Assembly (NCBI GenBank): GCA_045576635.1
Contig: JAZNGT010000038.1
Location: forward strand, 1-64,000
DNA length: 64,000 bases
Reading direction: 5' to 3'
From: Congzhengia sp.
GTDB taxonomy: Bacteria; Bacillota; Clostridia; UBA1381; UBA9506
Shown here one piece after another: positions 24,402-64,000 of the stretch (positions are counted from its first letter, which is position 1; each line of letters begins with the position of its first letter). Position numbers and translations under genes: made by a program. Under the pieces are notes generated by a model. The model had not been told where the DNA came from and made no database searches. It worked only from the letters and a program-made list of their open reading frames with translations.

Positions 24402-24456
24402 ACAGTATTTGCTAACGGGAAAGAGATTCTGACCCGAAAGAAAGGGAGTTTTAGAC

Positions 24457-25872: not shown

Positions 25873-25882
25873 GAGGTACGCC

Positions 25883-27085: not shown

Positions 27086-27089
27086 AACG

Positions 27090-38263: not shown

Positions 38264-38292
38264 TTGACAAATTTTTCGCCTTGTGCTATAAT
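38264..38292 (+). promoter_or_regulatory. sigma70-type promoter
   Basis: TTGACA - 17 nt - TATAAT upstream of the NifU-like/GGGtGRT pair. Confidence 0.55.
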
Positions 38293-38343
38293 TGTTTCGG
38301 TATGACAATTGTTAAAATATGTATTGAAAGGAGCAACTTTGTC

Positions 38344-39036: not shown

Positions 39037-39053
39037 TTAAGGAGGGTATTATA

Positions 39054-43726: not shown

Positions 43727-44301
43727 TGCAAAAACAAGAAAATCCCGCAGTGTTATCCTTGGTTTTGTTTGTTATTTCGGCAGTTGTGGCGCTTTTGTTG
43801 GCGTTTACCCATTCTGTGACGAAAGACAAAATCGCAGAAAACACGTTAAAAGAGCAACTGCAAGCAAAACAGGAAGTTTTACAAGAAGCATTTGACTTTT
43901 TAGATGTAGAATTTAAAGACGAAACCGGTCTTGTGCGTTCACTTTCGCAGGGCGTAAGCGGGGACGGAAAACACGTCGGCTGGGTTGCAAATGTTGTGCC
44001 CTCAGGCTATGGCGGCGCAATTGACGTGATGGTAGGAATCGGACTTGACGGGAACTTGACCGGCGTGAAAGTCGTTTCCCATTCGGAAACCGCAGGTCTT
44101 GGCGCAAAGGCGGCAGAGGATGAATTCCCCTCGCAGTATGTGGGAAAATCCATACAAAATCCGTTAACCGTTATTAAAAACGGAACGCCGAAGACAGACG
44201 AAATCGTTGCGATTTCCGGCGCAACCATTACGAGCCGTGCCGTAACAAGCGGCGTAAATGCCGCAATGGATGCGGTAAAACGCTTAAACGGAGGTGTGTA
44301 A
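43726..44301 (+). CDS. rnfG: Rnf complex subunit G (FMN-binding)
   Basis: SGATITSRAV FMN-binding motif and an N-terminal TM anchor. Confidence 0.8.
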   Translation: MQKQENPAVLSLVLFVISAVVALLLAFTHSVTKDKIAENTLKEQLQAKQEVLQEAFDFLDVEFKDETGLVRSLSQGVSGDGKHVGWVANVVPSGYGGAIDVMVGIGLDGNLTGVKVVSHSETAGLGAKAAEDEFPSQYVGKSIQNPLTVIKNGTPKTDEIVAISGATITSRAVTSGVNAAMDAVKRLNGGV

Positions 44302-44302
44302 T

Positions 44303-44911
44303 ATGGGAAATTTTAAAGAACTCACCAAAGGCCTTTTAAAAGAAAATCCCATTTTCGTGCAGTTTCTGGGTATGTGTGCTACGCTCGCCGTTTCGACAAG
44401 CGTGGTAAACGGTCTCGGTATGGGACTTTCTACCGCGGCGGTTTTGGTTATGTCAAACATCATTATTTCGCTCATGCGTAAAGTTATTCCCGATAAGGTG
44501 CGTATTGCGGCTTACATTATTGTAATAGCGGGTTGTGTTACCGCCGTTGAAATGGCAATTAAAGCATTTGCACCGGAGATTTCAAAATCGCTCGGTATTT
44601 TTATTCCGCTTATCGTAGTAAACTGTATCATTTTAGGCCGTGCCGAAGCGTTTGCATCGAAAAACAGTGTCGGAAAATCGGCGCTTGACGGCATCGGCAT
44701 GGGGCTTGGCTTTACACTGGGACTTGTGATTTTAAGTGCGATCCGTGAAATTTTAGGTAATGGTACGTTTTTGGGAATTGCGCTCTTTGGTAAGTCGTTC
44801 CAACCGGTAAGCGTACTTACACTTCCGCCGGGCGGATTTATTATGTTAGGTATTGTGCTTGCGGTGATTAACATTCTCACGAAAAAGCACGGGGAAAGGA
44901 GCGATAAATAA
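44303..44911 (+). CDS. rnfE: Rnf complex subunit E
   Basis: NqrD-like six-TM protein. GGAGGTG RBS. Confidence 0.8.
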   Translation: MGNFKELTKGLLKENPIFVQFLGMCATLAVSTSVVNGLGMGLSTAAVLVMSNIIISLMRKVIPDKVRIAAYIIVIAGCVTAVEMAIKAFAPEISKSLGIFIPLIVVNCIILGRAEAFASKNSVGKSALDGIGMGLGFTLGLVILSAIREILGNGTFLGIALFGKSFQPVSVLTLPPGGFIMLGIVLAVINILTKKHGERSDK

Positions 44912-45495
44912 TGAAACTTTTTGTAGAACTTGTACTCCTTTCTTTAACAACCATTTTAGCAAACAACTATGTATTGGTAAAGTTTTTGGGTATTTGTCCG
45001 TTTTTAGGCGTATCGAAAAAGGTCGGAACGGCAGTCGGTATGAGCGTTGCCGTTACGTTCGTTATGACGGTGGCTTCCTGCGTTACTTTCTTTGTGCAAA
45101 AACTTTTGGTTTTCTTTCAGATTGAATATATGCAGACCGTGGCGTTTATTTTGGTTATTGCAGTTTTGGTGCAAGTGGTGGAAATGGCGATTGCACGCTA
45201 TTCTCCCGCACTTTACAATGCGCTTGGCATTTACCTTCCCTTAATTACCACAAACTGCGCCGTTTTGGGCGTTGCCCTTTTAAACGTGCAGGAGGGATTT
45301 GATTTTGTTCATACACTCGTTTACAGTTTCTCTGCAGGTCTTTCGTTTATGCTTGCAATCGTGTTGTTTGCCGGTGTAAGAGAACGATTAGAAACTGCCG
45401 ATATTCCAAAGCCTTTACAAGGGTTTCCCATTGCGCTTATTACCGCAGGCCTGCTTGCAATGGCATTTCTGGGCTTTTCCGGAATGAGTTTTTAG
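44911..45495 (+). CDS. rnfA: Rnf complex subunit A
   Basis: NqrE-like. Paralogous to rnfE. Confidence 0.8.
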   Translation: MKLFVELVLLSLTTILANNYVLVKFLGICPFLGVSKKVGTAVGMSVAVTFVMTVASCVTFFVQKLLVFFQIEYMQTVAFILVIAVLVQVVEMAIARYSPALYNALGIYLPLITTNCAVLGVALLNVQEGFDFVHTLVYSFSAGLSFMLAIVLFAGVRERLETADIPKPLQGFPIALITAGLLAMAFLGFSGMSF

Positions 45496-45505
45496 GAGGT
45501 AGGGT

Positions 45506-46309
45506 ATGAGAGCAATTTTAGAACCGATTCTTATTTTAAGTGTTATGGGCGCGGTGTTCGGCGTGCTTTTAGGCGTTGCGGCAAAGGCGTTTCGCGTGGA
45601 AAAAGATGAACGTCTTGATTTAATCACAGAACTTTTGCCCGGCGCAAACTGCGGCGGCTGCGGATATGCCGGTTGCGGCGCGATGGCGCAGGCGCTACTT
45701 GACGGTCACGCGGCAGTAAGTGACTGCCCCAGTATGAAAGCAGAAAACAGAGAGCGCATAGCGGCAATTTTAGGCGTAAGCGCCGGAGAAGTACTCCCCA
45801 AAGTTGCGCGCGTAATGTGCAGCGGCTCGTGTACAAGTGCGGTGATGCACTGCTCGTACGAGGGCATTACAGACTGCGTTGCTGCATCCCGCTATGGGGG
45901 CGGCGACAAGGCGTGCAGTTTCGGCTGTATCGGCTACGGAAGTTGCGGCGATGTGTGCCAGTTTGATGCTATTTCGGTTGTAGACGGCGTTGCCGTGGTA
46001 GACAGCGACAAATGTACCGCCTGCGGTATGTGCGTAGACGTTTGTCCGCAGCACGTGATTTCGCTTGTTAATAAAAATCAGAGAACATTTGTAAGTTGTA
46101 TGTCAAAAGACAAAGGCGCAAACCTGAAAAATATTTGCGCGAAAGGCTGCATCGGCTGCCGTATTTGCGAAAAGAATTGTCCGAAAGGCGCAATTACCGT
46201 CGAAGATAATCTGGCGCGTATTGATTACGACCTTTGCGTAAACTGTGGCATCTGTGCAGAAAAATGCCCGAGAAAGATTATAGATTTTACAAGGCCGGAA
46301 GCGGTTTAA
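45506..46309 (+). CDS. rnfB: Rnf complex subunit B (polyferredoxin)
   Basis: N-terminal TM helix, then CGGCGYAGCG and several CxxCxxCxxxCP clusters. Confidence 0.8.
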   Translation: MRAILEPILILSVMGAVFGVLLGVAAKAFRVEKDERLDLITELLPGANCGGCGYAGCGAMAQALLDGHAAVSDCPSMKAENRERIAAILGVSAGEVLPKVARVMCSGSCTSAVMHCSYEGITDCVAASRYGGGDKACSFGCIGYGSCGDVCQFDAISVVDGVAVVDSDKCTACGMCVDVCPQHVISLVNKNQRTFVSCMSKDKGANLKNICAKGCIGCRICEKNCPKGAITVEDNLARIDYDLCVNCGICAEKCPRKIIDFTRPEAV

Positions 46310-53968: not shown

Positions 53969-54556
53969 TTATTTAAAGTATCTCTTTAAAAGTCCTTCTA
54001 AGCCTCTGCCGTGGCGAGCTTCGTCGCGCGCCATTTCGTGAACGGTGTCGTGGATTGCATCCAAGCCGTTTTTCTTCGCGCAAGCCGCCAAGTCAAACTT
54101 ACCTTTCGTTGCGCCGTATTCACAGTCAACGCGCCATTTTAAGTTGTCTTTGGTGGTTGCTTTCATGTTGGGTTCTAAATCTTCGCCTAAAAGTTCAGCG
54201 AATTTTGCAGCGTGTTCTGCTTCTTCATACGCTGCTTTTTCCCAGTAAAGACCTACTTCGGGGTAGCCCTCGCGGTGCGCGATGCGCGCCATGCAGAGAT
54301 ACATACCTACTTCAGCGCATTCGCCGTTAAAGTTTGCCATAAGTTGTTCGAAGATATATTTTTTATCTTCTTCGGAAATATCGGGGTTGTTCTTTACGGT
54401 TTTTGCGTAAACGCCGTATTCATGTTCTGCAGCCAACGCTGCGCCTTCTTCCATAATGGTAAATTTTTCGCCGGCTACTTTACATACCGGGCAAGCCTCG
54501 GGAGCCGTTTCTCCTTCGTGAACGTATCCGCAAACGGGACATACAAATTTTTTCAT
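53969..54556 (-). CDS. rbr: reverse rubrerythrin (N-terminal rubredoxin-like, C-terminal diiron ferritin-like domain)
   Basis: N-terminal CPVCGY...CPVCK rubredoxin motif followed by an ExxH-containing four-helix diiron domain. Confidence 0.8.
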
Positions 54557-54598
54557 GTTTCATTACCTCCATTTGATTGTATTGTAAATTTTTTAAAA

Positions 54599-54979
54599 TT
54601 ATGCATTTTCCAAGTTACACTCGTCGCAAGTGCCGTAGATGTAAAGGCGATAGGTGTCGACCGTTGCGTGCTTGCCGAGGGAGTTTAAAATGGTTTCCCT
54701 CGGAAGCGTAAAGGAAAGGTCTTTAACGCCGCCGCACTTTGAACAGACAAAGTGTTGATGTTCTTTTAAATCTGCATCAAAATGGTCGGTGCCATCGCCC
54801 GTTTTTAAACGGAGAATTTGTTTTTGCTCGCAAAGCAGCCCTAAATTTCGGTACACCGTTGCAAGACTTAAACGGGGCATTACAGGCTTTAATTCTGCGT
54901 AAATGCGTTCTGCCGTGGGATGCTCTTTTGTGTTTTTTAAATAGGTGATAATCAGTTCCCTCTGTTTTGAAAACGACAT
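54599..54979 (-). CDS. perR: Fur-family transcriptional regulator, probably PerR
   Basis: Fur-family fold with HxH and CxxC...CxxC (HFVCSKCGG...CDEC). Located upstream of, and co-oriented with, rubrerythrin. A Fur/PerR-type box lies at its promoter. Confidence 0.7.
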   Translation of the reverse strand: MSFSKQRELIITYLKNTKEHPTAERIYAELKPVMPRLSLATVYRNLGLLCEQKQILRLKTGDGTDHFDADLKEHQHFVCSKCGGVKDLSFTLPRETILNSLGKHATVDTYRLYIYGTCDECNLENA

Positions 54980-54997
54980 TTCTCGCACCCCTTTCTT

Positions 54998-55020
54998 AAA
55001 ATAAGAATGATAATCATTCC
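54998..55020. promoter_or_regulatory. Fur/PerR-type operator AAATAAGAATGATAATCATTCCT at the perR promoter
   Basis: Perfect palindrome GAATGAT-A-ATCATTC located 19-41 bp upstream of the perR start codon. Confidence 0.6.
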
Positions 55021-55098
55021 TAATTTCTAAATATATTCTAACAGATATACATTTTGATGTCAAGGATTTTTTTTAAAATTTGTTGAAAATTTTTTTGC

Positions 55099-55127
55099 GT
55101 TCTGCTACAATGAAATTATAGGTAGGT
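55099..55127 (+). promoter_or_regulatory. sigma70-type promoter upstream of the PHP/DRTGG/hydrogenase-like cluster
   Basis: TTGAAA - 17 nt - TACAAT. Nested palindromes GTAACAC..GTGTTAC and ACACTATTTcataAAATAGTGT follow in the 5'UTR. Confidence 0.4.
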
Positions 55128-55192
55128 TTCTTGTGTAACACGCGTGACACTATTTCATAAAATAGTGTTACAGAAAAAAGGGGGGACCCTTC

Positions 55193-55927
55193 ATGTACAT
55201 TGATTTTCATACACATATCCTTCCCGGGATTGACGACGGTGCTAAAACTCTCGAAGATGCGCTTTCGATGCTTTCTTTGGCAAAGAAAAGCGGTGCCGAA
55301 CTGGTGGTACTTACGCCGCACTATCTATGGGAGGAATCCATCGATGCGTTTTTAGAAAAGCGGAATGCGGCACTTTTAAAATTCCAAGATGCTGCAAGGG
55401 AGAGCGGGGATACCGAGTTTCCATCCCTTTGCCTTGGCGCAGAAGTCATGTTTGACAGAACGCTCGAAAACTGCGAGGGGTTAGAAAAACTTTGCATTTC
55501 GGGCACAAACCGTTTGCTTTTGGAACTTCCCGGACCATCGGTGCAGTCGTGGCACATCACTGAGGCGTATCATTTAATGGCAAAACGCAACATTTTGCCC
55601 GTTTTCGTACATATTGAGCGGTATCTTAATAAGCCGAAAGCCCTTTCAGAACTCGAAGAACTTGTCACCATTGGCGCAAAGTTTCAGGTAAACGCGTCAT
55701 CTTATTTAAATTTTTCGGGCAAACGCGTAATCGATGCTTTGGCAAAACAGTATTTAATTTCTGCCATCGGGTCTGATGCGCACAGTTTAAAATGGAGAAA
55801 CCCCGACATTTCGCGTGCAGTTACAAAACTTTCAAAACGCTTTGGAAACGGCTTTTTGCGATATGTAAAAGAACAATCGGAAGAACTTTTAGAGGGTGCC
55901 AAAACGCACCATCCCTTATCCATATAA
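55193..55927 (+). CDS. PHP-family Mn-dependent protein-tyrosine phosphatase (CpsB/YwqE-like)
   Basis: MYIDFHTHILPGIDDGAK N-terminal metal-binding motif. 244 aa. Confidence 0.7.
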   Translation: MYIDFHTHILPGIDDGAKTLEDALSMLSLAKKSGAELVVLTPHYLWEESIDAFLEKRNAALLKFQDAARESGDTEFPSLCLGAEVMFDRTLENCEGLEKLCISGTNRLLLELPGPSVQSWHITEAYHLMAKRNILPVFVHIERYLNKPKALSELEELVTIGAKFQVNASSYLNFSGKRVIDALAKQYLISAIGSDAHSLKWRNPDISRAVTKLSKRFGNGFLRYVKEQSEELLEGAKTHHPLSI

Positions 55928-55951
55928 ATTGACGTTTGAGGAGAGAAACAT

Positions 55952-56305
55952 ATGAAATTAAAAGAGGTACAAAACATTTTAGGAGCAACACTTGTCGTAG
56001 GATGCGACGGCTGGGAGGAGACAGAAGTAAAATCCGCCTGCGGAAGTGATCTTATGAGTGACGTGCTCGCGTTTGTAAAAGACCAGGCGCTTCTTTTAAC
56101 GGGACTTGTGAATCCGCAGGTGATTCGTACCGCAGAAATGATGGACATTAAAGTCATTGTGTTTGTGCGCGGAAAAATGCCCGGCGAAGAAGTCATAGCA
56201 CTTGCAGAAAAACTCGATATGACCGTATTTTCGACAGAACTTCCGTTATACATTTCCTGCGGAAAACTTTATAAAAACGGCCTTTCCGGAAACGGGGAGG
56301 CGTAA
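55952..56305 (+). CDS. DRTGG-domain protein
   Basis: 117 aa. The conserved DRTGG-like core is LLLTGLVNPQVIRTA. Confidence 0.55.
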   Translation: MKLKEVQNILGATLVVGCDGWEETEVKSACGSDLMSDVLAFVKDQALLLTGLVNPQVIRTAEMMDIKVIVFVRGKMPGEEVIALAEKLDMTVFSTELPLYISCGKLYKNGLSGNGEA

Positions 56306-56307
56306 GT

Positions 56308-56733
56308 ATGGCACAAAATCTTACGCTCCATTACGACATTGACGGCGCAGATTTTACCGTTGCAGGTCAGGCGTCGAGTAACATTAAAAAGGTGTTAAAG
56401 CAATTAGGCGTTGCGCCCGAGATTATAAGAAAAGCCGCAATTTCCATGTATGAGGGCGAAATCAATACCGTCATTCACGGAAAAGGCGGAACAGCAGATG
56501 TTTTGCTTACCACCGACAGACTTATCATTACCTTTCGTGACAACGGCCCCGGTATCTCTGATATCGAGCAGGCAATGCAGGAAGGGTTTTCGACCGCGAC
56601 GAACGAAGCAAGAGAACTGGGGTTTGGCGCGGGTATGGGACTTCCCAATATGAAAAAATATTCTGACGAACTTAACATTACCTCAAAACCCGGCGAGGGC
56701 ACAACCGTTGAAATTATTATAAACCTCGCCTGA
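56308..56733 (+). CDS. GHKL-ATPase anti-sigma-factor-type serine kinase (RsbW/SpoIIAB-like)
   Basis: N-box/G-box-like IITFRDNGPGISDIEQAMQEGFST...GFGAGMGL. 141 aa. Confidence 0.65.
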   Translation: MAQNLTLHYDIDGADFTVAGQASSNIKKVLKQLGVAPEIIRKAAISMYEGEINTVIHGKGGTADVLLTTDRLIITFRDNGPGISDIEQAMQEGFSTATNEARELGFGAGMGLPNMKKYSDELNITSKPGEGTTVEIIINLA

Positions 56734-56760
56734 CGGGAAATTTTTCAAGGAGGTGTTTTT

Positions 56761-58035
56761 ATGCCATCCGATAACGAAATTTTATACCATTCCGTTACGC
56801 TTGACGAGCAAAAGTGTAAAGGGTGTACCGCCTGCTTAAAACGCTGTCCGACGGAGGCGATCCGTATTCGTGACGGCAAGGCGCATATTATAAAGGAACT
56901 TTGTATTGACTGCGGTGAGTGTATCCGCGTGTGTCCGTACCATGCCAAAAAAGCAGTGACGGATTCGTTTGAGGCTTTAAACCGATTCGAGTACAATATT
57001 GCAGTGCCTGCGCCCACGCTTTACGGGCAGTTTAACAATTTAAAAGACATCAATTACGTTTTAAACGGACTGTTACAAATCGGGTTTGACGATGTATACG
57101 AGGCGGCAAAGGCAACCGAGGCGGTAACCGATTATGCCAAAAAGTTATTAGACGAAGGGAAACTTTCACGCCCCGTTATAAACTCTGCGTGCCCTGCGGT
57201 GTTGCGTCTTATTACCGTTCGGTTTCCGAACCTTTTACAAAACATTCTTCCCGTGATTGCGCCCGTTGAGGCAGCGGCGATTGCAGCAAGGCGGAGTGCG
57301 GCAGAAAAAACGGGACTTTCAGAAGATAAAATCGGCGTGTTCTTTATTTCGCCCTGCGCCGCAAAGGCAACAACGGTGCAAAATCCGTTGGGACTGGAAA
57401 AATCCCCCATAAGCGGCGTGCTTTCGATGAAAGATGTATATATGCGTCTTTTGCCCGAAATGAAACGGTTAAAAGATGTGCAAAATTTAAGTAATTCATC
57501 CTTAGAGGGCATTAACTGGGCGCGTATCGGCGGCGAGATTAAGGCGCTAAAACACAAAAAATGTCTTTCCGTTGACGGCATTGACAACATCATCGCGCTC
57601 TTTGAAGAAATTGAAGACGATGAAACGCTCGATATTGATTTTATCGAGGCACTTTCGTGTGACGGCGGTTGTGTAAGCGGTCCTTTAACCGTAGAAAACG
57701 GCTACGTTGCGAAGATGCGCGTGGTCGAAATCGGAAAAGAACAAAACGAAAAGGGCATTTTAAGAACGCCCGTTGCGATTTCGGATGAAGAACTTCACTG
57801 GAATGCGCCCGTTTGCTATCGCGACGGTCAGCATCTGGACGAAGATTTTTCCGTGGCGCTTTTAAAGATGGAAAAAATGGAACAGATTTATGAAAAACTT
57901 CCGCACACCGATTGCGGTTCGTGCGGAGCGCCCACCTGCAAGTGTTTTGCAGAAGACATTGTGCGCGGTGTGGCAGAAGAGGGCGACTGTATTTATAAGA
58001 TGCGTGAGGCGCTCGCCAAAAAAGAAGATGCGTAA
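56761..58035 (+). CDS. [FeFe]-hydrogenase-like protein with degenerate H-cluster motifs (putative sensory/regulatory hydrogenase homolog)
   Basis: N-terminal 2x[4Fe-4S] ferredoxin domain (CKGCTACLKRCP, CIDCGECIRVCP). H-cluster-domain homologs of L1/L2/L3: NSACPAV (TSCCP with the proton-relay Cys replaced by Ala), SPCAAKA, EALSCDGGCVSGP. An extra C-terminal CGSCGAPTCKC..GDC cluster. Confidence 0.6.
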   Translation: MPSDNEILYHSVTLDEQKCKGCTACLKRCPTEAIRIRDGKAHIIKELCIDCGECIRVCPYHAKKAVTDSFEALNRFEYNIAVPAPTLYGQFNNLKDINYVLNGLLQIGFDDVYEAAKATEAVTDYAKKLLDEGKLSRPVINSACPAVLRLITVRFPNLLQNILPVIAPVEAAAIAARRSAAEKTGLSEDKIGVFFISPCAAKATTVQNPLGLEKSPISGVLSMKDVYMRLLPEMKRLKDVQNLSNSSLEGINWARIGGEIKALKHKKCLSVDGIDNIIALFEEIEDDETLDIDFIEALSCDGGCVSGPLTVENGYVAKMRVVEIGKEQNEKGILRTPVAISDEELHWNAPVCYRDGQHLDEDFSVALLKMEKMEQIYEKLPHTDCGSCGAPTCKCFAEDIVRGVAEEGDCIYKMREALAKKEDA

Positions 58036-58050
58036 AAAAGGGGAGATACG

Positions 58051-58377
58051 ATGCGAATCAGTGAACTAAAAGATGCGCTTTCGCTTAATGTTTGCGCAAA
58101 AGGCGCAACAGACAGAGAAATTACGGGCTGTTATATCGGCGATATGCTGAGCGTGGTAATGTCGCGCGCAGAAGAAGGCGATATATGGCTTACCGTGCAG
58201 ACAAACGTCAATATTGCAGCGGTTTCGGTGCTTTGCGGGGTTGCGTGCATCATTACGGTTGAGGGCATGGTACCCGATCAAGAAACAATCGAAAAAGCAG
58301 AAAAGGAAGATGTAACGATTTTTACATCGTCCGAGACGGCGTATGAACTCGCCGCCAAAATAAAGGAACTTTTATGA
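58051..58377 (+). CDS. DRTGG-domain protein
   Basis: 108 aa. Paralog of 55952..56305. Confidence 0.55.
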   Translation: MRISELKDALSLNVCAKGATDREITGCYIGDMLSVVMSRAEEGDIWLTVQTNVNIAAVSVLCGVACIITVEGMVPDQETIEKAEKEDVTIFTSSETAYELAAKIKELL

Positions 58378-59087
58378 TTTGTTATTGCGATTTGCATCTG
58401 CATTCTGCACTTTCTCCCTGCGGCGACTCTGATATGACGCCGAATAACATTGTGAATATGGCGGCTCTTTGCGGTCTTGATTTTATTGCCGTTACCGACC
58501 ACAACACCGTGGGAAATGTCGGCGCTGTGATGCGTGTGGCAGAAGAAAAAGGCGTTTTGGTTGTGCCTGGAATGGAACTTGAAACCGCAGAAGAGGCGCA
58601 TTTTGTCTGCCTGTTCGAGACGCTTTCGCAGGCAGAGGCGTTTGAGGCATGGCTTTCGCCTTACCGCTTAAACATAAAAAATAAGGTATCGCTCTACGGC
58701 GAACAGCAGTATTTAAACGAAAAAGACGAAGTGGTAGGAGTGGAAGAGCGCCTTTTGGTAACTGCCGCGACGTGCTCGGTGTATGACGCTGCGCCGCAAG
58801 TAAAATCGCTTGGCGGTGTGATGATTCCCGCGCATGTCGATAAAACGTCGTACAGCGTGATTCAAAGTCTTGGTACGGTGCCATCGGATTTGGGATTTAC
58901 TACGGTCGAGATTTCGAAAAACATCACAAAAAAAGAGGCGATAGAAAAATTTCCGTATCTTTCGGAATTTTCTCTTATTACCAATTCGGATTCGCATTAT
59001 TTAGATTCATTTTATGAAACAGAAAACCCTATTTGTGTAGAAGAAAAAACAATAAAATCATTGATAGATGCGCTAAAAAGAAAATAA
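58374..59087 (+). CDS. PHP-domain metal-dependent phosphoesterase
   Basis: N-terminal CDLHLHSALSPCGD and VTDHNT PHP metal-ligand motifs. 237 aa. Confidence 0.65.
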   Translation: MICYCDLHLHSALSPCGDSDMTPNNIVNMAALCGLDFIAVTDHNTVGNVGAVMRVAEEKGVLVVPGMELETAEEAHFVCLFETLSQAEAFEAWLSPYRLNIKNKVSLYGEQQYLNEKDEVVGVEERLLVTAATCSVYDAAPQVKSLGGVMIPAHVDKTSYSVIQSLGTVPSDLGFTTVEISKNITKKEAIEKFPYLSEFSLITNSDSHYLDSFYETENPICVEEKTIKSLIDALKRK

Positions 59088-59126
59088 AATTCCGCATACA
59101 TTGCTTTGTATGCGGAATTTTTTTGC
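59088..59126 (+). terminator. rho-independent terminator
   Basis: ATTCCGCATACA-TTGCTT-TGTATGCGGAAT followed by TTTTTTTG. Confidence 0.7.
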
Positions 59127-59242
59127 CCTTTTTCGCCTTGCTTTGTCGAAACATTGCCTGTATGCGCTGCCAAATATTTACATTTTTTTCAAGATAATTG
59201 GTATATAATGGAAATCAAATAAGAGTTGGAGGCATACATAAG

Positions 59243-61588
59243 ATGAAACACGAACTCAACACACCGCTTCGTCCAGGGGCGTTTTTTCAGAAACTCAATT
59301 TAAAAGATGTGTTAAAAGGCATGCGAAAAAGCGAACTTTTTGAGGGCGTTCTGGTTTTTTTGCTTTCCAGAATCTGCTTTGACGGGTATTTAATCTCGCC
59401 GTTCGGACTTCCGTTTTTTGCTGCCGTTTTCCAAAAAAAGCACCACCCAATTGCACTCCTTTCTGCGCTTTTGGGTATGTGGTCATTGGGGTATGTGTCG
59501 TTTTCTTTAAAATACAGCGGTGCGCTCGTGATTTTAACCGCATTTTTAACGCTGTTTCAAAAGGAACTTTCAGGAAAGACACTTCTAACAGCACTTGCCG
59601 TTTCGCTTTCCTTATTTTTAAACGGCTTGGTGTACGTGTTCACAGAAGGCGTATTTCTTTATGACACGATGCTCCTTTTGTTTGAGTGCGGTGTTGCGTT
59701 TTTGTCGTTTTTTGCAATGCAAAAGACGGCGACTCTTCTGTTTTCCTTACAAAAAAGGACACGTTTTCATCCTACGGAACTCGTAAGTCTTGTTCTTACG
59801 TTTGGCGCAGTGGTGTTAAGTTTAGCGCTTACGGAGAATCTTCTTCCGCTTGCGCACGTTTTTGCGATTACGTTTTTGCTCGCGCTCTCGGTTGCGGGCG
59901 GCGTTTCCATTTCCTCTCCCGCAGGCGCGGTGATGGGACTTTCTGTCTCGCTTGCATCCGTTTACCAGCCACAGACGGTTTGCGTTTATTGTCTTGCCTC
60001 TTTTGCATCAGGACTTTTTTCGCGGTTCGGAAGAGTAGGAGTGACCTTAGCCTTTGCCGTTATGAGTGCGTTTTCGACTATCTTTTTGTGCCCCGAAATG
60101 AGCGGGATTATCACGGTTTCGTATGTGGCGCTTTCAGGCGTGGTACTTTTGTTTTTGCCCGACCGCATTTTCAGATATCTTGGGCTTATGGAGCGCTCTT
60201 TAAAAGAAGAAATCAAACTCGGTGCGCGCTACCGCGATGCCGTAGAGAATACGCTTTCGGAGACAATTGACGCAGTTGAGTCGGTAAGCGGAATCTTTCA
60301 CGAGGTGACAGATTCGTATTTTGATGAAAGCAAAAATTACGAGGCGAAAATCTTTGACGAAACTGCCGACAGCGTGTGCAAGCAGTGTTCGCTTTGCAAG
60401 TTCTGCTGGGAAAAATCAAGAGAAGAAACCGTGCCCTTAATGAACGAAATGTATGATATTTTAGAAAAAAAGCATACCCTTTTAAAAGGCGATGCACCGC
60501 AGGCGTTTTTGGATATGTGCATCAGAAAAGATGCGTTTTTGGCGCATCTTAACAAAAATTACGAGGCGTTTAAAATCACACGAATGTGGGCAGGAAAGGT
60601 GCTGCAGAGCAAGCGCTTAGTTGCAGAACAGTTTGAAAGCGTTTCGATGATACTGAAAAATGTAAAGGAACGCCTGATAGAAAAAATGCACGCAGAACCT
60701 CAGTTGGAACAAAAAATCCAAACGGCATTAGACGTTCGCGGTGTTTCTGCCGCAAAGGTTTCGGTTCTTTCGGGAGACGGGCTTTCGGTACGGCTCGACA
60801 AGGTAAGTTGCGGTGAAAATTTTGAGTGTCAGCACCTTGTAAAAAGTGCCGTTTCCGAAGTGCTGAAAGTCCCCGTAACGCAGGAAAAAAGAGAGTGCAA
60901 AAGCGATATTTGTCATCTTTCGTATGCACAGAAAACAAAATTTTCGTATGATGTTGCGGTTTCTTTTAAACCGCGTGCGTTTTCAACAGAATCGGGCGAC
61001 AGTGTACTTTCGTTCCCAATGGAAAACGGTAAAGTGGCGCTCATTTTATCAGACGGCATGGGCAGCGGAAAAGAAGCGCATTTTCAGAGCCATATCACGA
61101 CAAAACTTGCCAAAAAGATGCTTTGTGCAGGTTTTGAAAAAGAGACAGTCGTAAAAATGATTAACAATATTTTAATGATGGATACCGACAAAGATTCGTT
61201 TGCGACCATTGATTTGTGTATTTTAAATCTTTACACGGGCACGTTGGAATTTGTAAAAACGGGCGCAGTAAATTCGTACATAAAAAGCGAAAACGGGGTA
61301 GAGGAAGTAGTCGCATCCTCTCTTCCCGCAGGGCTTGTTTCAGAAGTTTCGCCCGACTTTTCTGTGCATTATCTTTCAAAAGGCAATTTTGTGGTTTTGG
61401 CATCGGACGGCGTGACAGATGCACTGGAAAGCGATGAAAAAAGCAAGATAAGTGAAATTTTAGCAGGATTTAAAGGGACTGCAAAAGAACTTTCTGACCG
61501 CATTTTAGATGTCGCGGTAAAAGAATCGGGAGGCTTACCCGCAGACGATTTAACCGTTATGGTACTTTCGGTTTTGGAAAATGCGTAG
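59243..61588 (+). CDS. spoIIE: SpoIIE-family membrane PP2C serine phosphatase (stage II sporulation protein E-like)
   Basis: GGAGG RBS. About 10 N-terminal TM segments, a central regulatory region, and a C-terminal PP2C domain (ILSDGMGSGKEAHFQS, DLCILNLYTG, LASDGVTD, DDLTVMVL). 781 aa. Confidence 0.65.
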   Translation: MKHELNTPLRPGAFFQKLNLKDVLKGMRKSELFEGVLVFLLSRICFDGYLISPFGLPFFAAVFQKKHHPIALLSALLGMWSLGYVSFSLKYSGALVILTAFLTLFQKELSGKTLLTALAVSLSLFLNGLVYVFTEGVFLYDTMLLLFECGVAFLSFFAMQKTATLLFSLQKRTRFHPTELVSLVLTFGAVVLSLALTENLLPLAHVFAITFLLALSVAGGVSISSPAGAVMGLSVSLASVYQPQTVCVYCLASFASGLFSRFGRVGVTLAFAVMSAFSTIFLCPEMSGIITVSYVALSGVVLLFLPDRIFRYLGLMERSLKEEIKLGARYRDAVENTLSETIDAVESVSGIFHEVTDSYFDESKNYEAKIFDETADSVCKQCSLCKFCWEKSREETVPLMNEMYDILEKKHTLLKGDAPQAFLDMCIRKDAFLAHLNKNYEAFKITRMWAGKVLQSKRLVAEQFESVSMILKNVKERLIEKMHAEPQLEQKIQTALDVRGVSAAKVSVLSGDGLSVRLDKVSCGENFECQHLVKSAVSEVLKVPVTQEKRECKSDICHLSYAQKTKFSYDVAVSFKPRAFSTESGDSVLSFPMENGKVALILSDGMGSGKEAHFQSHITTKLAKKMLCAGFEKETVVKMINNILMMDTDKDSFATIDLCILNLYTGTLEFVKTGAVNSYIKSENGVEEVVASSLPAGLVSEVSPDFSVHYLSKGNFVVLASDGVTDALESDEKSKISEILAGFKGTAKELSDRILDVAVKESGGLPADDLTVMVLSVLENA

Positions 61589-61646
61589 GAACACTTTTTC
61601 TTTTTGCGCATAGTATGTAGTACAAAGAAAAAGGGAGGGCACCAAA

Positions 61647-61793
61647 ATGTGGCTTAAATACAGAATTTGGTCGATTGTGTGCGGTGCATTTTGTCTGGGG
61701 ATTTTTGCAGGACTTTTGCTGCCTCCGATGTTTTTGGTTGTCATAGAGGGCGTTCTTTTGCTTTTTGTGGCGATTTGCAAACTGTGCGGTTAG
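61647..61793 (+). CDS. 48-aa hydrophobic small membrane protein (hypothetical)
   Basis: AAGGGAGGG RBS 7 nt upstream. Sequence MWLKYRIWSIVCGAFCLGIFAGLLLPPMFLVVIEGVLLLFVAICKLCG. Found by hand; it is below the ORF-track length cutoff. Confidence 0.35.
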   Translation: MWLKYRIWSIVCGAFCLGIFAGLLLPPMFLVVIEGVLLLFVAICKLCG

Positions 61794-61811
61794 ATAGAAA
61801 GGAGCAAGTTT

Positions 61812-61886
61812 ATGAAGGTTGTAGTACTTACATTACCAAAGGCAATTACGGGGATTTTAAAAAGCATTTTTAAAATGAAAGACTAA
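61812..61886 (+). CDS. 24-aa small peptide ORF (hypothetical)
   Basis: GGAGCAAG RBS. Sequence MKVVVLTLPKAITGILKSIFKMKD. Immediately followed by an intrinsic terminator. Confidence 0.2.
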   Translation: MKVVVLTLPKAITGILKSIFKMKD

Positions 61887-61887
61887 A

Positions 61888-61921
61888 AAGAAGGAGTCAC
61901 TTTTAAGTGACTCTTTTTTTA
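61888..61921 (+). terminator. rho-independent terminator (GAGTCACTT-TTAA-AAGTGACTC)
   Basis: Perfect 9-bp stem followed by TTTTTTT. The identical hairpin recurs at 63358-63377. Confidence 0.65.
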
Positions 61922-62040
61922 TGCTGTCTTTTTTTCATTTTCGCACAAAAAAACGCTTATAGTCGGTATTGTGACTATAAGCCATCCGGAGTGGAAAAAC
62001 GAATGGAACAAGCGCTTTTTGCTGCGCGGAAACGTTTTTT

Positions 62041-62064
62041 GTACTTTTGGCATGACAAAAGTAC
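62041..62064. repeat. short hairpin repeat R1 (GTACTTTTG-GCATGA-CAAAAGTAC)
   Basis: Perfect 9-bp stem. Further copies lie at 62471-62494, 62643-62666, 63311-63334 and 35746-35768. Confidence 0.7.
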
Positions 62065-62093
62065 AAAGAATTTACTTGAAAACGCTTTTTCTA

Positions 62094-62135
62094 TGCCCTT
62101 TTGTTTCGACAAAGACACGAAAACCATTTCGCGCA
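62094..62135. repeat. short hairpin repeat R2 (GCCCTTTTGTTTCGrCAAArGrC...GAAAACCATTTCGCGC)
   Basis: Further copies at 62553-62596, 62697-62737 (perfect stem GCCCTTTTG/CAAAAGGGC) and 35621-35680. Confidence 0.6.
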
Positions 62136-62153
62136 ATCAGGAAAGAAAAGAAT

Positions 62154-62494
62154 TTTTACTTGTTACTACGCGGAAACAAATGGGACACCGTATTTCACAC
62201 AAAACTGACGCGTTGGGTGAAAATGCGCTCAAAAACGCGATGGTTTATCCCGAAAGATGCCGTATGTAAGGCAAAACCGAGGTGTCAAAAAGTTCCCCTA
62301 GCCGACCCTCGGTTTTAGATGGACCTGAGCGCATATATATGCGCGAATGTTCTCGTGCCTTACATAAGGCATTACCTCGTGTGTTTAAAAAGTGCAAAAT
62401 ACTTACGGTTTTTGACAAGAAAACAAAGCGGCATAAATCGAGCGCTTTTTGCCGCGCAGATACGCTTTTGGTACTTTTGGCACGACAAAAGTAC
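62154..62494. repeat. ~345-bp structured repeat element, copy 1
   Basis: About 97% identical to 62991-63334. Internal nested palindromes include a 17-bp outer stem ATGCCGTATGTAAGGCA/TGCCTTACATAAGGCAT, AAAACCGAGG/CCTCGGTTTT, and GCGCATATATATGCGC. Confidence 0.7.
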
Positions 62495-62610
62495 GGAGAA
62501 AAGATATATACAAAATAAAAAAGCGCTGCTTTAAACGTGACTCTCGTTTTATGCCCTTTTGTTTCGACAAAGACACGAAAACCATTTCGCGCAAACAGTA
62601 AAGAAAAGAA

Positions 62611-62666
62611 TTTTTACTTGTTACCACGCGGATACGCTTTTGGTACTTTTGGCATGACAAAAGTAC
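62611..62666. repeat. short 'empty-site' version of the 345-bp element (5' and 3' ends joined without the ~286-bp core)
   Basis: TTTTTACTTGTTACCACGCGGA | TACGCTTTTGGTACTTTTGGCATGACAAAAGTAC. Confidence 0.55.
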
Positions 62667-62990
62667 AAAGAATTTACTTGAAAACGCTTTTTCTATGCCC
62701 TTTTGTTTCGGCAAAAGGGCGAAAACCATTTCGCGCCACAGCAAACAAATGATTGATAGCCACATATCGCACAAAGTGGTGGTATATAAAAAGCGAAACG
62801 GCGTGTTTTCTGCGAGCCCCCTGCGGTTTGCGGCACGGGCAGATGCAAAAGACTCACTTTTGCAACTGCCCTAAAATCGGGGGTCAGCAAAGGAAACCGA
62901 TACCACCCGATTTTACACGCACACCGCAGGCGGAATAATCAATCAATTCATTTGCTAAGGCGCATCGGAGCGCAATAATTAAAGATAAGA

Positions 62991-63334
62991 GTTTTTACTT
63001 GTTACCACGCGGAAACAAACGGGACACCGTATTTCACACAAAACTGACGCGTTGGGTGAAAATGCGCTCAAAAACGCGATGGTTTATCCCGAAAGATGCC
63101 GTATGTAAGGCAAAACCGAGGCGTCAAAAAGTTCCCCTAGCCGACCCTCGGTTTTAGATGGACCTGAGCACATATATATGTGCGAATGTTCTCGTGCCTT
63201 GCATACGGCATTACCACGTGTGTTTAAAAAGTGCAAAATACTTACGGTTTTTGACAAGAAAACAAAGCGGCATAAATCGAGCGCTTTTTGCTGCGCAGAA
63301 ACGCTTTTGGTACTTTTGGCATGACAAAAGTACG
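62991..63334. repeat. ~345-bp structured repeat element, copy 2
   Basis: Direct repeat of copy 1, with compensatory changes in the stems (GCACATATATATGTGC here versus GCGCATATATATGCGC in copy 1). Confidence 0.7.
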
Positions 63335-63354
63335 GAGAAAAACACGAAAAAGAA

Positions 63355-63385
63355 AAAGAGTCACTTTTAAGTGACTCTTTTCGTT
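63355..63385. terminator. second copy of the GAGTCACTT-TTAA-AAGTGACTC hairpin
   Basis: Identical stem-loop to 61894-61913, followed by TTTTCGTTTTG. It could terminate either convergent unit. Confidence 0.45.
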
Positions 63386-63410
63386 TTGCTTTGCGCGGTC
63401 GGCACCATTT

Positions 63411-64000
63411 TTACATCTCAACAGGCGTAACATTCCAGATATTTTTAGCATAATCCGTTACGCTTCTGTCTGATGCAAACACGCCCGCATTTGCGATGTT
63501 TTTAAGCGACATATTGAAAAACCGTGTTTTATCGGCGTACGCTTCGTTTACCGTAACGTGCGCGTTTTTATACGATTCAAAGTCTGCCATGTTCATATAC
63601 GGGTCGGAAGTTATCAGGTAGTTTACGATGCTGTCAAAGTTTTTGCCGCCGATGCCGCCCGATTTGATAAATTCTAAAACATCACGAAGTGCGGCAGACG
63701 CATCGATATACGCTTTCGGGTTGTAGCCTTGGCTGTAAAGGGCATTTACTTCGTCTTTGGTAAGACCGAAAATAAAGATGTTTTCTTTGCCTACTGCATC
63801 TAAAATCTCAACATTTGCGCCGTCTAATGTGCCGAGCGTTACGGCGCCGTTTAACATCAGTTTCATATTACCCGTACCGGACGCTTCTTTTCCTGCCTGC
63901 GAAATCTGTTCGCTGATGTCTGCCGCAGGAATGATAATTTCGGCAAGCGAAACTTTATAATCTGCCACGAACACCACTTTGATAAAGTCGCGCACATCGG
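63411..64000 (-). CDS. glgP: glycogen/alpha-glucan phosphorylase, C-terminal part (gene continues beyond the window end)
   Basis: PLP-site motif EASGTGNMKLMLNGAVTLGTLDGANVE. The ORF remains open at the window end. Confidence 0.8.
   Translation of the reverse strand, partial: DVRDFIKVVFVADYKVSLAEIIIPAADISEQISQAGKEASGTGNMKLMLNGAVTLGTLDGANVEILDAVGKENIFIFGLTKDEVNALYSQGYNPKAYIDASAALRDVLEFIKSGGIGGKNFDSIVNYLITSDPYMNMADFESYKNAHVTVNEAYADKTRFFNMSLKNIANAGVFASDRSVTDYAKNIWNVTPVEM

What the first reader, a model, noticed from the sequence alone, without database searches (positions are those of the whole stretch)
55193..61588. Degenerate [FeFe]-hydrogenase-like protein embedded in a partner-switching module (GHKL kinase, SpoIIE-type PP2C, two DRTGG and two PHP proteins)
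ORF 56761-58035 has a 2x[4Fe-4S] ferredoxin N-terminus and an H-cluster domain. The four [4Fe-4S]H cysteine ligands are kept, but catalytic signature residues are altered:
- L1 is NSACP instead of TSCCP, so the proton-relay Cys is replaced by Ala;
- L2 is SPCAAKA instead of MPCxxK;
- L3 is EALSCDGGC instead of ExMACxxGC.

It is flanked by an RsbW/SpoIIAB-like anti-sigma serine kinase, two DRTGG-domain proteins and two PHP phosphoesterases. It lies immediately upstream of a 10-TM SpoIIE-family PP2C phosphatase.

Such hydrogenase-like proteins have been classed as putative sensory hydrogenases whose output is unknown. The wiring here suggests H2/redox sensing coupled to a kinase/phosphatase partner switch. 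The switch may feed into sigma-F activation through SpoIIE. HydG and HydF maturases are encoded 30 kb upstream in this window. No catalytic HydA or HydE is present in the window.
Basis: partly seen in the sequence, partly recalled or inferred. Interest (0 to 1): 0.65.

Follow-up and report, generated by a model that had tools for sequence, protein, structure and literature searches.

The report
Group D sensory-type hydrogenase gene cassette
This is an ordinary copy of a known but poorly understood "hydrogen-sensor-like" [FeFe] hydrogenase. It sits in a five-gene cassette found in hundreds of Clostridia, and the sporulation phosphatase gene next to it is only a neighbour.

Summary
The genes and altered motifs are real. 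ORF 56761-58035 is a Group D (M2e) putative sensory [FeFe] hydrogenase. It is 50.6% identical over its full length to the characterised TamHydS and shares its diagnostic residues. These changes define the group; they are not decay.

The gene sits in a five-gene cassette: DRTGG, SpoIIAB-like GHKL ATPase, HydS, DRTGG, PHP phosphoesterase (55952-59087).
- The upstream pair is present in 77/77 related genomes with enough flank.
- The downstream pair is present in 68/75.
- In about half of the genomes the cassette lies directly in front of the electron-bifurcating hydABC operon.

The proposed link to SpoIIE and sigma-F is not supported.
- spoIIE follows the cassette in only 2 of 60 related genomes.
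- A strong terminator hairpin (-20.8 kcal/mol) separates it from the cassette.
- No STAS protein or sigma factor gene is in the window.

The first "PHP" gene is a CpsB-type tyrosine phosphatase, found only in this lineage.

What is useful is the comparison across genomes. The four conserved accessory proteins keep intact catalytic residues. A natural DRTGG-GHKL fusion also exists. These proteins are concrete candidates for the still-unidentified signalling partners of Group D hydrogenases.

The parts
55083..55111 (+). Sigma-70-like promoter (TTGAAA-17-TACAAT with TG). It is the candidate start of the cpsB-to-PHP2 transcription unit.
   Evidence: Consensus scan, 10/12 matches. This is a pattern match only.
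55193..55927 (+). CpsB/CapC-type PHP tyrosine phosphatase. It is a lineage-specific passenger, probably co-transcribed, and not part of the conserved cassette.
   Evidence: PF19567, 1.4e-41, full length. It is present upstream of the cassette only in Congzhengia-clade loci (4/71), where it follows a ParA/CbiA-type BY-kinase that is absent from the window.
55952..56305 (+). DRTGG1, a small DRTGG-domain protein and the most conserved accessory gene of the cassette.
56308..56733 (+). SpoIIAB/RsbW-like stand-alone GHKL ATPase or serine kinase.
   Evidence: HATPase_c and HATPase_c_2. Its profile aligns over residues 3-137 with SpoIIAB (E 5e-11) and RsbW (1e-4). The N-box (E49, N53, H57), G1 (D78, G80, G82) and G2 (G105-G111) residues are invariant in 77 orthologues.
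56761..58035 (+). HydS, a Group D (M2e) putative sensory [FeFe] hydrogenase. It has two N-terminal [4Fe-4S] motifs, an H-domain and a C-terminal Cx2Cx4Cx16C cluster.
   Evidence: Pfam. It is 50.6% identical to TamHydS, with A143, S197, L298, E259, E296, D272 and C385/388/393/410 matching TamHydS A137, S191, L291, E252, E289, D265 and C379/382/387/404. The motifs are invariant in 12 homologues.
58051..58377 (+). DRTGG2, the second small DRTGG-domain protein. Its stop overlaps the PHP2 start by 4 nt.
   Evidence: PF07085 and a weak Hpr_kinase_N match. Together with PHP2 it lies directly downstream of HydS in 68/75 loci. Invariant residues are D31, S34 and N54.
58374..59087 (+). PHP2, a PHP-family metal-dependent phosphoesterase of the nucleotide / nucleic-acid type.
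   Evidence: PF02811. The best structural relatives of its profile are EndoQ (1e-8), RNase AM (1e-7) and pAp phosphatases. The full metal-ligand set H8, H10, D42, H43, E68, H76, H154, D206 and H208 is invariant in 75 orthologues.
59086..59121 (+). Intrinsic terminator hairpin that ends the cassette transcript. It has a 15-bp perfect stem followed by a U-run.
   Evidence: dG -20.8 kcal/mol, z -7.48, 0/200 shuffles as stable. A comparable + strand terminator lies at the same place in L009.
59243..61588 (+). spoIIE, the sporulation PP2C phosphatase with a multi-pass membrane domain. It is an adjacent but separate gene and is not part of the cassette.
   Evidence: SpoIIE_N plus the SpoIIE domain. 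TIGR02865 matches full length at 423.6 bits, below the 490.8 cutoff. Hydrophobic segments span residues 30-305. It is adjacent to the cassette in only 2/60 related loci.

Best explanation
The locus is a standard Group D (M2e) 'HydS' cassette: DRTGG1, SpoIIAB-like GHKL ATPase/kinase, HydS, DRTGG2 and a PHP phosphoesterase. It is probably transcribed from about 55083 to the terminator at 59086-59121, together with a lineage-specific cpsB passenger gene.

Proposed mechanism:
1. HydS, matured by HydEFG (HydG and HydF are in the window), carries an H-cluster that turns over H2 slowly. The group A proton relay is replaced by the Group D one.
2. H2 (or ferredoxin redox state) sets the redox state of the accessory clusters, including the C-terminal [4Fe-4S] cluster.
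3. That state is read by the DRTGG1/GHKL pair, which performs an ATP-dependent step. This step is either Ser/Thr phosphorylation or SpoIIAB-like sequestration of a partner.
4. The DRTGG2/PHP2 pair resets the signal by hydrolysing a phospho-group or a nucleotide.
5. The ancestral target is the electron-bifurcating HydABC hydrogenase encoded directly downstream in about half of the genomes. In this lineage the cassette has been separated from hydABC, so its target is unknown.

spoIIE is an unrelated neighbour.

Status of each step:
- Shown here: gene identities, Group D membership, conservation of the five-gene order, intact catalytic residues, the terminator, and the lack of conserved spoIIE linkage.
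- Taken from the literature on TamHydS: H-cluster binding, slow H2 turnover, and reduction of the accessory clusters by H2.
- Inferred: every protein-protein and phosphoryl-transfer step, and the target.
For: - Group D identity: 50.6% identity to TamHydS. All of A137, S191(M353), L291(M497), E252, E289, D265 and the four C-terminal Cys are matched. There is no PAS domain.
- Cassette conservation in 83 non-redundant loci at 48-78% HydS identity: upstream pair 77/77 and downstream pair 68/75.
- HydB/NuoF lies within 10 kb in 18/40 loci, 17 of them downstream on the same strand. This agrees with the literature.
- The GHKL protein is SpoIIAB-like with invariant ATP-binding motifs. PHP2 has an invariant metal-ligand set.
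- DRTGG1 and the GHKL protein are more conserved than HydS itself.
- A natural DRTGG1-GHKL fusion exists in Thermovenabulum: 3 cluster members on 9 contigs, including WP_424906316.1. One metagenomic contig carries a DRTGG1-HydS fusion.
- Genes are tightly packed, with frequent 4-nt overlaps.
- A terminator follows PHP2.
- HydG, HydF and a TM1266-family regulator are in the window.
Against: - No experiment links any accessory protein to HydS. The 2026 TamHydS paper states that the partners are unidentified.
- The cassette has no DNA-binding protein, no STAS protein and no obvious kinase substrate.
- PHP2 resembles nucleotide and nucleic-acid phosphoesterases, not protein phosphatases, so a simple kinase/phosphatase pair may be wrong.
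- TamHydS does catalyse H2 turnover at low rates, so a catalytic role is not excluded.
- The window protein has Ile at the moderately conserved relay position S249.
- hydABC is absent from the window. Whether the genome has it at all is unknown.
- The DRTGG1-HydS fusion rests on a single 2.4-kb contig.
Confidence: 0.6

Rival explanations
1. HydS senses H2 or redox state and drives a kinase/phosphatase partner switch whose phosphatase is the adjacent SpoIIE, feeding into sigma-F activation and sporulation.
For: The GHKL protein is SpoIIAB-like. A full-length SpoIIE-type gene lies 155 bp downstream on the same strand. The same adjacency occurs in two Congzhengia MAGs, L009 and L011.
Against: - Adjacency is found in only 2/60 related loci. 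It is absent in C. minquanensis (78% identity) and in L010 (73%).
- A strong terminator lies between the genes here and in L009.
- No STAS or sigma factor gene is in the window.
- The DRTGG fold is unrelated to STAS.
- The cassette already carries its own conserved phosphoesterase.
Confidence: 0.04
2. The cassette signals through a nucleotide rather than through protein phosphorylation. The DRTGG proteins would be nucleotide-binding regulators, as in CBS-DRTGG pyrophosphatases and Pta. PHP2 would degrade a nucleotide or an RNA 5' end. The GHKL protein would act as an ATPase clamp rather than a kinase. HydS would gate this by redox state.
For: The nearest relatives of PHP2 are EndoQ, RNase AM and 3',5'-bisphosphate nucleotidases, not CpsB-type protein phosphatases. 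DRTGG domains elsewhere sit in nucleotide-regulated phosphoryl-transfer enzymes. DRTGG1 has many invariant polar residues (D33, S36, D37, N54, Q56, R59, T60, R73, K75), which suits a ligand site.
Against: In the solved CBS-PPase regulatory part the nucleotides bind the CBS domains, not the DRTGG domain (established knowledge; not tested here). The GHKL protein is closest to protein kinases and anti-sigma factors. No cyclase or synthetase for a messenger is in the cassette.
Confidence: 0.2
3. HydS is not a sensor. It is a slow catalytic or electron-transfer hydrogenase that works with HydABC, for example as an accessory or alternative H2-activating module. The accessory genes would serve its assembly, repair or post-translational control.
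For: TamHydS evolves and oxidises H2 measurably and has its own conserved proton pathway, which is retained here as E259, E296 and D272. The cassette is co-oriented and contiguous with hydABC in many genomes. No transcription factor is encoded.
Against: Activities are orders of magnitude lower than in group A enzymes, and CO and O2 behaviour is atypical. The cassette persists without hydABC nearby in about half of the loci, including this one. An invariant SpoIIAB-like ATPase points to signalling.
Confidence: 0.12

Closest known systems
TamHydS (Thermoanaerobacter mathranii), the characterised Group D / M2e putative sensory [FeFe] hydrogenase
   Same: The architecture is the same: two N-terminal [4Fe-4S] motifs, an H-domain and a C-terminal Cx2Cx4Cx16C motif, with no PAS domain. 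Identity is 50.6% over 417 aligned residues. Shared residues are C299->Ala, M353->Ser, M497->Leu, and the Group D relay residues E252, E289 and D265. An HK-like ATPase gene is the neighbour in both.
   Different: The window protein has Ile256 where TamHydS has S249. It also lacks the roughly 20-residue C-terminal tail after the last cluster Cys. Here the cassette is not next to hydABC; it lies between perR-rbr/cpsB and spoIIE.
Group C (M2f) HydS/HfsB sensory hydrogenases (T. maritima HydS, R. albus HydS, T. saccharolyticum HfsB)
   Same: Both have an H-domain lacking the proton-relay Cys and the same C-terminal four-Cys motif. Both show genomic association with bifurcating hydrogenases and with kinases or phosphatases.
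   Different: Group C proteins carry a PAS domain and are linked to Ser/Thr kinases or PP2C phosphatases. The window protein has no PAS domain. Its conserved partners are a SpoIIAB-like GHKL protein, two DRTGG proteins and a PHP enzyme.
SpoIIAB-SpoIIAA-SpoIIE / RsbW-RsbV-RsbU partner-switching modules
   Same: Both include a stand-alone GHKL protein of about 140 aa that aligns end to end with SpoIIAB and has intact ATP-binding motifs. Small alpha/beta proteins and a phosphoesterase are encoded alongside it.
   Different: The cassette has no STAS protein, and the small proteins have the DRTGG fold. The conserved hydrolase is PHP, not PP2C. No sigma factor is present. The adjacent SpoIIE is not conserved and sits behind a terminator.
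HoxBC-HoxJ-HoxA regulatory [NiFe] hydrogenase system (Cupriavidus / Rhodobacter)
   Same: The concept is the same: a slow, atypical hydrogenase coupled to a kinase controls expression of energy-converting hydrogenases (background text).
   Different: The metal site and protein families are unrelated. HoxJ is a PAS histidine kinase with a response regulator, and neither is present here.
HPr kinase/phosphorylase (HPrK/P)
   Different: The HPrK/P catalytic domain is a P-loop kinase, not a GHKL protein, and no HPr-like substrate is present here.

Membership tests
[FeFe] hydrogenase Group D (M2e) | [quoted passage not shown] | tested here: met
   Fer4, Fer4_10 and Fer4_7 hits over residues 12-62. 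The Cys residues are conserved in the alignment.
[FeFe] hydrogenase Group D (M2e) | H-domain that keeps the four Cys ligands of the H-cluster (CpI C300, C355, C499, C503) | tested here: met
   C144, C199, C300 and C304 are invariant in 12 homologues and align to the L1-L3 Cys of HDCR HydA2 and DdH.
[FeFe] hydrogenase Group D (M2e) | Proton-relay Cys299 replaced (Ala); M353->Ser and M497->Leu as in TamHydS | tested here: met
   A143, S197 and L298 align to TamHydS A137, S191 and L291.
[FeFe] hydrogenase Group D (M2e) | Group-D-specific alternative proton pathway (TamHydS E252, E289, D265, S249) | tested here: inconclusive
   E259, E296 and D272 are present and invariant. S249 is Ile256 here, at a position the authors call only moderately conserved.
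[FeFe] hydrogenase Group D (M2e) | C-terminal Cx2Cx4Cx16C cluster motif and no PAS domain | tested here: met
   PF04060 over residues 380-412. C385, C388, C393 and C410 are invariant. No PAS hit.
[FeFe] hydrogenase Group D (M2e) | Phylogenetic placement within Group D against reference sets for groups A-G | not tested
   No curated reference set was available. Proxy evidence is 50.6% full-length identity to TamHydS, against only local E of about 1e-17 matches to group A structures.
[FeFe] hydrogenase Group D (M2e) | Binds an H-cluster and reacts with H2 | not testable with these tools
   This needs biochemistry. HydG and HydF are encoded in the window.
Partner-switching module (RsbW/SpoIIAB type) | Anti-sigma-type GHKL Ser kinase | tested here: met
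   The profile aligns over residues 3-137 with SpoIIAB (5e-11) and RsbW (1e-4). ATP-binding motifs are invariant. Kinase activity was not tested.
Partner-switching module (RsbW/SpoIIAB type) | STAS-domain antagonist as kinase substrate | tested here: not met
   No STAS hit in the cassette or in any annotated window ORF. DRTGG1 fold search returns DRTGG, HPrK-N and Mur ligase N-domains, not STAS.
Partner-switching module (RsbW/SpoIIAB type) | Cognate PP2C phosphatase functionally linked to the kinase | tested here: not met
   spoIIE is adjacent in 2/60 related loci only and is separated by a terminator.
Partner-switching module (RsbW/SpoIIAB type) | Target sigma factor | tested here: inconclusive
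   None is in the 64-kb window. The rest of the genome was not available.
SpoIIE (stage II sporulation protein E) | Multi-pass N-terminal membrane domain, central regulatory region and C-terminal PP2C domain | tested here: met
   PF19732 SpoIIE_N (2e-52, residues 43-588) and PF07228 (1e-24). Hydrophobic segments span residues 30-305.
SpoIIE (stage II sporulation protein E) | Scores above the NCBIfam equivalog cutoff (TIGR02865) | tested here: not met
   423.6 bits against a cutoff of 490.8, although the alignment covers 5-762 of 764 model positions. It is probably a divergent orthologue.
CpsB/YwqE PHP tyrosine phosphatase | Full-length CpsB_CapC domain paired with a BY-kinase gene | tested here: inconclusive
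   The domain is met (PF19567, 1.4e-41). The BY-kinase gene present in relatives L001, L009, L010 and L011 is missing here.

The most novel reading that the evidence does not exclude
The conserved five-gene cassette may be a previously undescribed, self-contained signalling device. It would be a non-canonical 'partner switch'. A SpoIIAB-like GHKL kinase would work with DRTGG-fold proteins in place of STAS proteins, and with a PHP phosphoesterase in place of a PP2C phosphatase. The redox state of the Group D hydrogenase would gate it. The invariant Ser of the shared D-x-(M/L)-S motif (S36 in DRTGG1, S34 in DRTGG2) would be the phospho-acceptor. In the Congzhengia lineage, where the cassette has left hydABC, it could have been rewired to another target.
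Probability: 0.2. Interest if true: 0.7.

Novelty: new member of a known kind. Interest (0 to 1): 0.33.

Why it matters
Group D [FeFe] hydrogenases are studied intensively by spectroscopy. How, or whether, they transmit an H2 signal remains open, and a 2026 paper still calls for their interaction partners to be identified.

This window adds only another family member. The comparison it prompted is more useful:
- Four accessory genes travel with HydS in essentially every genome examined.
- All four keep catalytic or ligand-type residues.
- One of them is naturally fused to the kinase-like protein.

This gives a defined set of proteins for pull-down, phosphorylation and deletion experiments. It also removes a tempting but false lead, namely H2 control of sporulation through SpoIIE.

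Tried and rejected
- Looking up the exact window HydS in the contig index returned nothing, so the source genome could not be examined beyond the window.
- STAS or sigma factor in the window: none found among all ORFs of at least 150 aa plus ten small intergenic ORFs.
- PHP2 as a CpsB-like protein phosphatase: sequence and profile searches point to EndoQ, RNase AM and pAp-phosphatase-type PHP enzymes instead.
- Rfam scan of 54000-64000 at gathering thresholds: no RNA family.
- Gene fusions among the 83 fetched loci: none. Fusions were found only through the 1.84-billion-protein library. Two other long hits there look like chimeric or mis-called ORFs (SPOR+DRTGG, DRTGG+ArgJ fragment) and were set aside.
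- The palindrome upstream of cpsB (55135-55172) is not conserved in relatives, so it was not pursued as an operator.
- Literature searches for DRTGG plus hydrogenase, and for HydS plus anti-sigma or partner switching, found nothing relevant. Calusinska 2010, Poudel 2016 and Greening 2016 could not be read, so earlier mention of the DRTGG and PHP neighbours cannot be excluded.
- The intergenic-gap statistics choose the start codon nearest the upstream stop. They are therefore biased toward small gaps and are only suggestive.

Full report
**What is in the sequence**

The region 55193-61588 carries seven co-directional ORFs exactly as described. Pfam and NCBIfam assign them as follows:
- 55193-55927: a CpsB/CapC-type PHP tyrosine phosphatase.
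- 55952-56305: a DRTGG protein.
- 56308-56733: a 141-aa HATPase_c / HATPase_c_2 protein whose best NCBIfam match is anti-sigma F factor.
- 56761-58035: a 424-aa protein with two ferredoxin-type [4Fe-4S] motifs, the [FeFe] hydrogenase H-domain and a PF04060 Fe-S domain.
- 58051-58377: a second DRTGG protein.
- 58374-59087: a PHP-domain protein.
- From 59198: a SpoIIE_N plus PP2C protein.

The motif readings are correct. Alignment to genuine group A enzymes places NSACP, SPCAAK and EALSCDGGC at L1, L2 and L3. HydG and HydF are at 24457-27085, preceded by a TM1266-family regulator. A tblastn search with HydA, HydB and HydC from related loci finds no other hydrogenase gene in the window.

Minor corrections apply. 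spoIIE really starts at ATG 59243, behind a GGAGG site. The first PHP protein belongs to a different subfamily from the second.

**What the hydrogenase-like protein is**

It is a Group D (M2e) [FeFe] hydrogenase, the class typified by TamHydS from Thermoanaerobacter mathranii. The literature defines the class by these features:
- two N-terminal [4Fe-4S] motifs;
- a C-terminal Cx2Cx4Cx16C motif and no PAS domain;
- loss of the proton-relay Cys299;
- Ser at M353 and Leu at M497;
- a group-specific alternative proton path (E252, E289, D265, S249).

I rebuilt the TamHydS protein from the machine-read coding sequence in the supplement of PMC13104023. I validated it against 14 published residue numbers. 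The window protein is 50.6% identical to it over 417 aligned residues. It matches A137, S191, L291, E252, E289, D265 and all four C-terminal Cys. Only S249 differs (Ile256).

In an alignment of 12 homologues at 51-100% identity, these residues are invariant. The substitutions are therefore the signature of a large functional group, not degeneration. No structure of this group has been solved.

**Is the neighbourhood conserved?**

A scan of one genome per species found at least 595 species-level genomes with relatives, and 80 loci were fetched. Together with loci from the contig index, this gave 83 non-redundant loci at 48-78% HydS identity. Almost all are Clostridia.

tblastn with the window proteins gave these counts:

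| Feature | Loci with feature / loci with enough flank |
|---|---|
| DRTGG1 + GHKL directly upstream | 77 / 77 |
| DRTGG2 + PHP2 directly downstream | 68 / 75 |
| CpsB upstream | 4 / 71 |
| spoIIE within 10 kb downstream | 2 / 60 |
| HydB (NuoF) within 10 kb | 18 / 40 |

In the seven loci without an adjacent downstream pair, the cases examined (L005, L029, L039) have inserted genes displacing the pair. The four CpsB loci all belong to the Congzhengia clade. The two spoIIE loci are L009 and L011. The closest named relative, Congzhengia minquanensis, has the cassette but no spoIIE next to it.

ORF clustering shows that the next most common neighbours are NuoE-like, a 183-aa HATPase, a small Fd-like protein, NuoF-like and a group A HydA. 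Together these form the electron-bifurcating hydABC operon. Of the 18 loci with HydB nearby, 17 have it downstream on the same strand.

This matches earlier comparative work. That work classed M2e enzymes as sensory because they sit upstream of bifurcating hydrogenases, next to protein kinases. An example is Cthe_0335 upstream of Cthe_0338-0342.

**SpoIIE and CpsB are neighbours, not parts**

A perfect 15-bp hairpin followed by a U-run begins at the PHP2 stop codon (59086-59121). Its free energy is -20.8 kcal/mol, with z -7.5 and no equally stable fold among 200 shuffles. A further 120 bp precede the spoIIE ribosome-binding site. L009, one of the two relatives sharing the adjacency, has an equivalent terminator.

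No STAS protein or sigma factor gene is present in the window.

In relatives, cpsB follows a ParA/CbiA-type BY-kinase gene. The window has lost that gene, so only 129 bp separate the Fur-family ORF as listed (213 bp from its likely true start at 54979) from cpsB. cpsB is probably co-transcribed with the cassette from a promoter-like site at 55083-55111, but it is not part of the conserved unit.

**What the accessory proteins are**

- GHKL protein. Its profile aligns end to end with SpoIIAB (E 5e-11) and RsbW. The N-box, G1 and G2 residues are invariant in 77 orthologues.
- PHP2. It keeps the complete set of PHP metal ligands in 75 orthologues. Its nearest solved relatives are EndoQ, RNase AM and 3',5'-bisphosphate nucleotidases, not CpsB-type protein phosphatases.
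- Both DRTGG proteins share an invariant D-x-(M/L)-S motif in a low-confidence loop.
- At about 50% HydS identity, DRTGG1 and the GHKL protein are more conserved than HydS itself.

All sources that name DRTGG1 homologues call them hypothetical proteins.

A profile search of 1.84 billion representative proteins found two informative fusions. One is a natural DRTGG1-GHKL fusion in Thermovenabulum, with three cluster members on nine contigs, including RefSeq WP_424906316.1. The other is a DRTGG1-HydS fusion seen on a single 2.4-kb metagenomic contig. The first is solid Rosetta-stone evidence that DRTGG1 and the kinase-like protein act together. The second is only a hint.

**How it most likely works**

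The model is as follows.
1. HydS binds an H-cluster and reports H2 or redox state through its accessory clusters. This rests on TamHydS biochemistry.
2. The DRTGG1/GHKL pair reads that state and performs an ATP-dependent step.
3. The DRTGG2/PHP2 pair reverses or terminates the signal.
4. The ancestral target is HydABC.

Only the anatomy and its conservation are shown here. Every interaction is inferred.

The main alternative at the level of mechanism is nucleotide-based rather than protein-phosphorylation-based signalling, which the affinities of PHP2 favour. A catalytic rather than sensory role for HydS cannot be excluded.

In this lineage the cassette sits away from hydABC. It lies beside a divergently transcribed Fur/PerR-rubrerythrin pair that is conserved in Congzhengia relatives. 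Its target here is therefore unknown.

**Comparison with what is known, and novelty**

The hydrogenase is a new member of a known group. Its association with kinases and with bifurcating hydrogenases has been published.

I found no paper in the searchable library that mentions the DRTGG or PHP partners, or that links HydS to anti-sigma-type kinases. A 2026 paper states that the partners remain to be identified. Three key comparative papers could not be read, so I do not claim priority.

**Limits**

- Gene calls in the fetched loci are crude longest-ORF calls backed by tblastn.
- The gap statistics are biased toward short gaps.
- The Group D placement rests on diagnostic residues and identity to TamHydS, not on a tree.

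Noticed in passing
window 61885-63381: A non-coding, repeat-rich stretch of about 1.5 kb lies downstream of spoIIE. It holds four copies of a 60-nt unit containing the hairpin GTACTTTTGGCATGACAAAAGTAC, and a 300-nt direct repeat (62131-62430 / 62970-63269, 96%). The same 33-nt hairpin AAAAAGAAGGAGTCACTTTTAAGTGACTCTTTT bounds it at both ends. There is no Rfam match.
   Followed up: partly
window 55135-55172: An imperfect palindrome with 12-bp arms (GTGACACTATTT-CATA-AAATAGTGTTAC) lies between the predicted promoter and the cpsB ribosome-binding site. It is absent from the corresponding regions of Congzhengia relatives.
   Followed up: partly
window 54980-55192 versus L001, L009, L010, L011: The ParA/CbiA-type BY-kinase gene that precedes cpsB in all four related loci is missing in the window. 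This leaves an orphan CpsB phosphatase directly in front of the cassette.
   Followed up: partly
window 55005-55019 (- strand), gene 54599-54979: A perfect 7-1-7 palindrome GAATGAT-T-ATCATTC (Fur/PerR-box-like) lies between a strong promoter (TTGACA-17-TAGAAT, 55063-55035) and the Fur-family gene. The true start of that gene is probably ATG 54979, not TTG 55063. The gene forms a conserved divergent pair with rubrerythrin next to the cassette in the Congzhengia clade.
   Followed up: partly
window 24150-27698: A hydrogenase maturation operon is present: TM1266-family putative regulator (24150-24401), HydG, HydF, and a flavin-reductase / rubredoxin-like fusion protein (27072-27698). HydE was not seen in the window.
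   Followed up: partly
window 57990-58035 (HydS C-terminus); alignment A1: HydS of the window and of its Congzhengia relatives ends about 20 residues earlier than other Group D proteins, including TamHydS. It lacks the charged tail that follows the last cluster cysteine.
   Followed up: no
window 57526-57528 (HydS residue 256): The Group D proton-path position S249 (TamHydS numbering) is Ile in the window protein and in C. minquanensis. Most homologues have Ser.
   Followed up: no
P0335 (Thermovenabulum sp., WP_424906316.1) and P0324 (JGI metagenome contig, 2405 nt): Natural fusions exist: DRTGG1 with the SpoIIAB-like GHKL protein (270 aa, several contigs), and DRTGG1 with a HydS-type hydrogenase (556 aa, single contig).
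   Followed up: partly
L005/L006 17426-18348 and 38 other loci: Many hydABC operons downstream of the cassette carry a second, different GHKL protein (about 183 aa, HATPase_c plus HATPase_c_3) and a 123-aa thioredoxin-like [2Fe-2S] protein between the NuoE-like and NuoF-like genes.
   Followed up: no
window 38281-40052: A GGGtGRT-family protein (PF14057, 2e-195) sits next to a 251-aa protein with a weak NifU/IscU-like segment.
   Followed up: no
window 41412-46309: A probable Rnf (ferredoxin:NAD+ oxidoreductase) operon lies about 9 kb upstream of the cassette; only RnfC (41412-42746) and RnfB (45506-46309) were assigned by family search, and the four ORFs between them were not searched.
   Followed up: no
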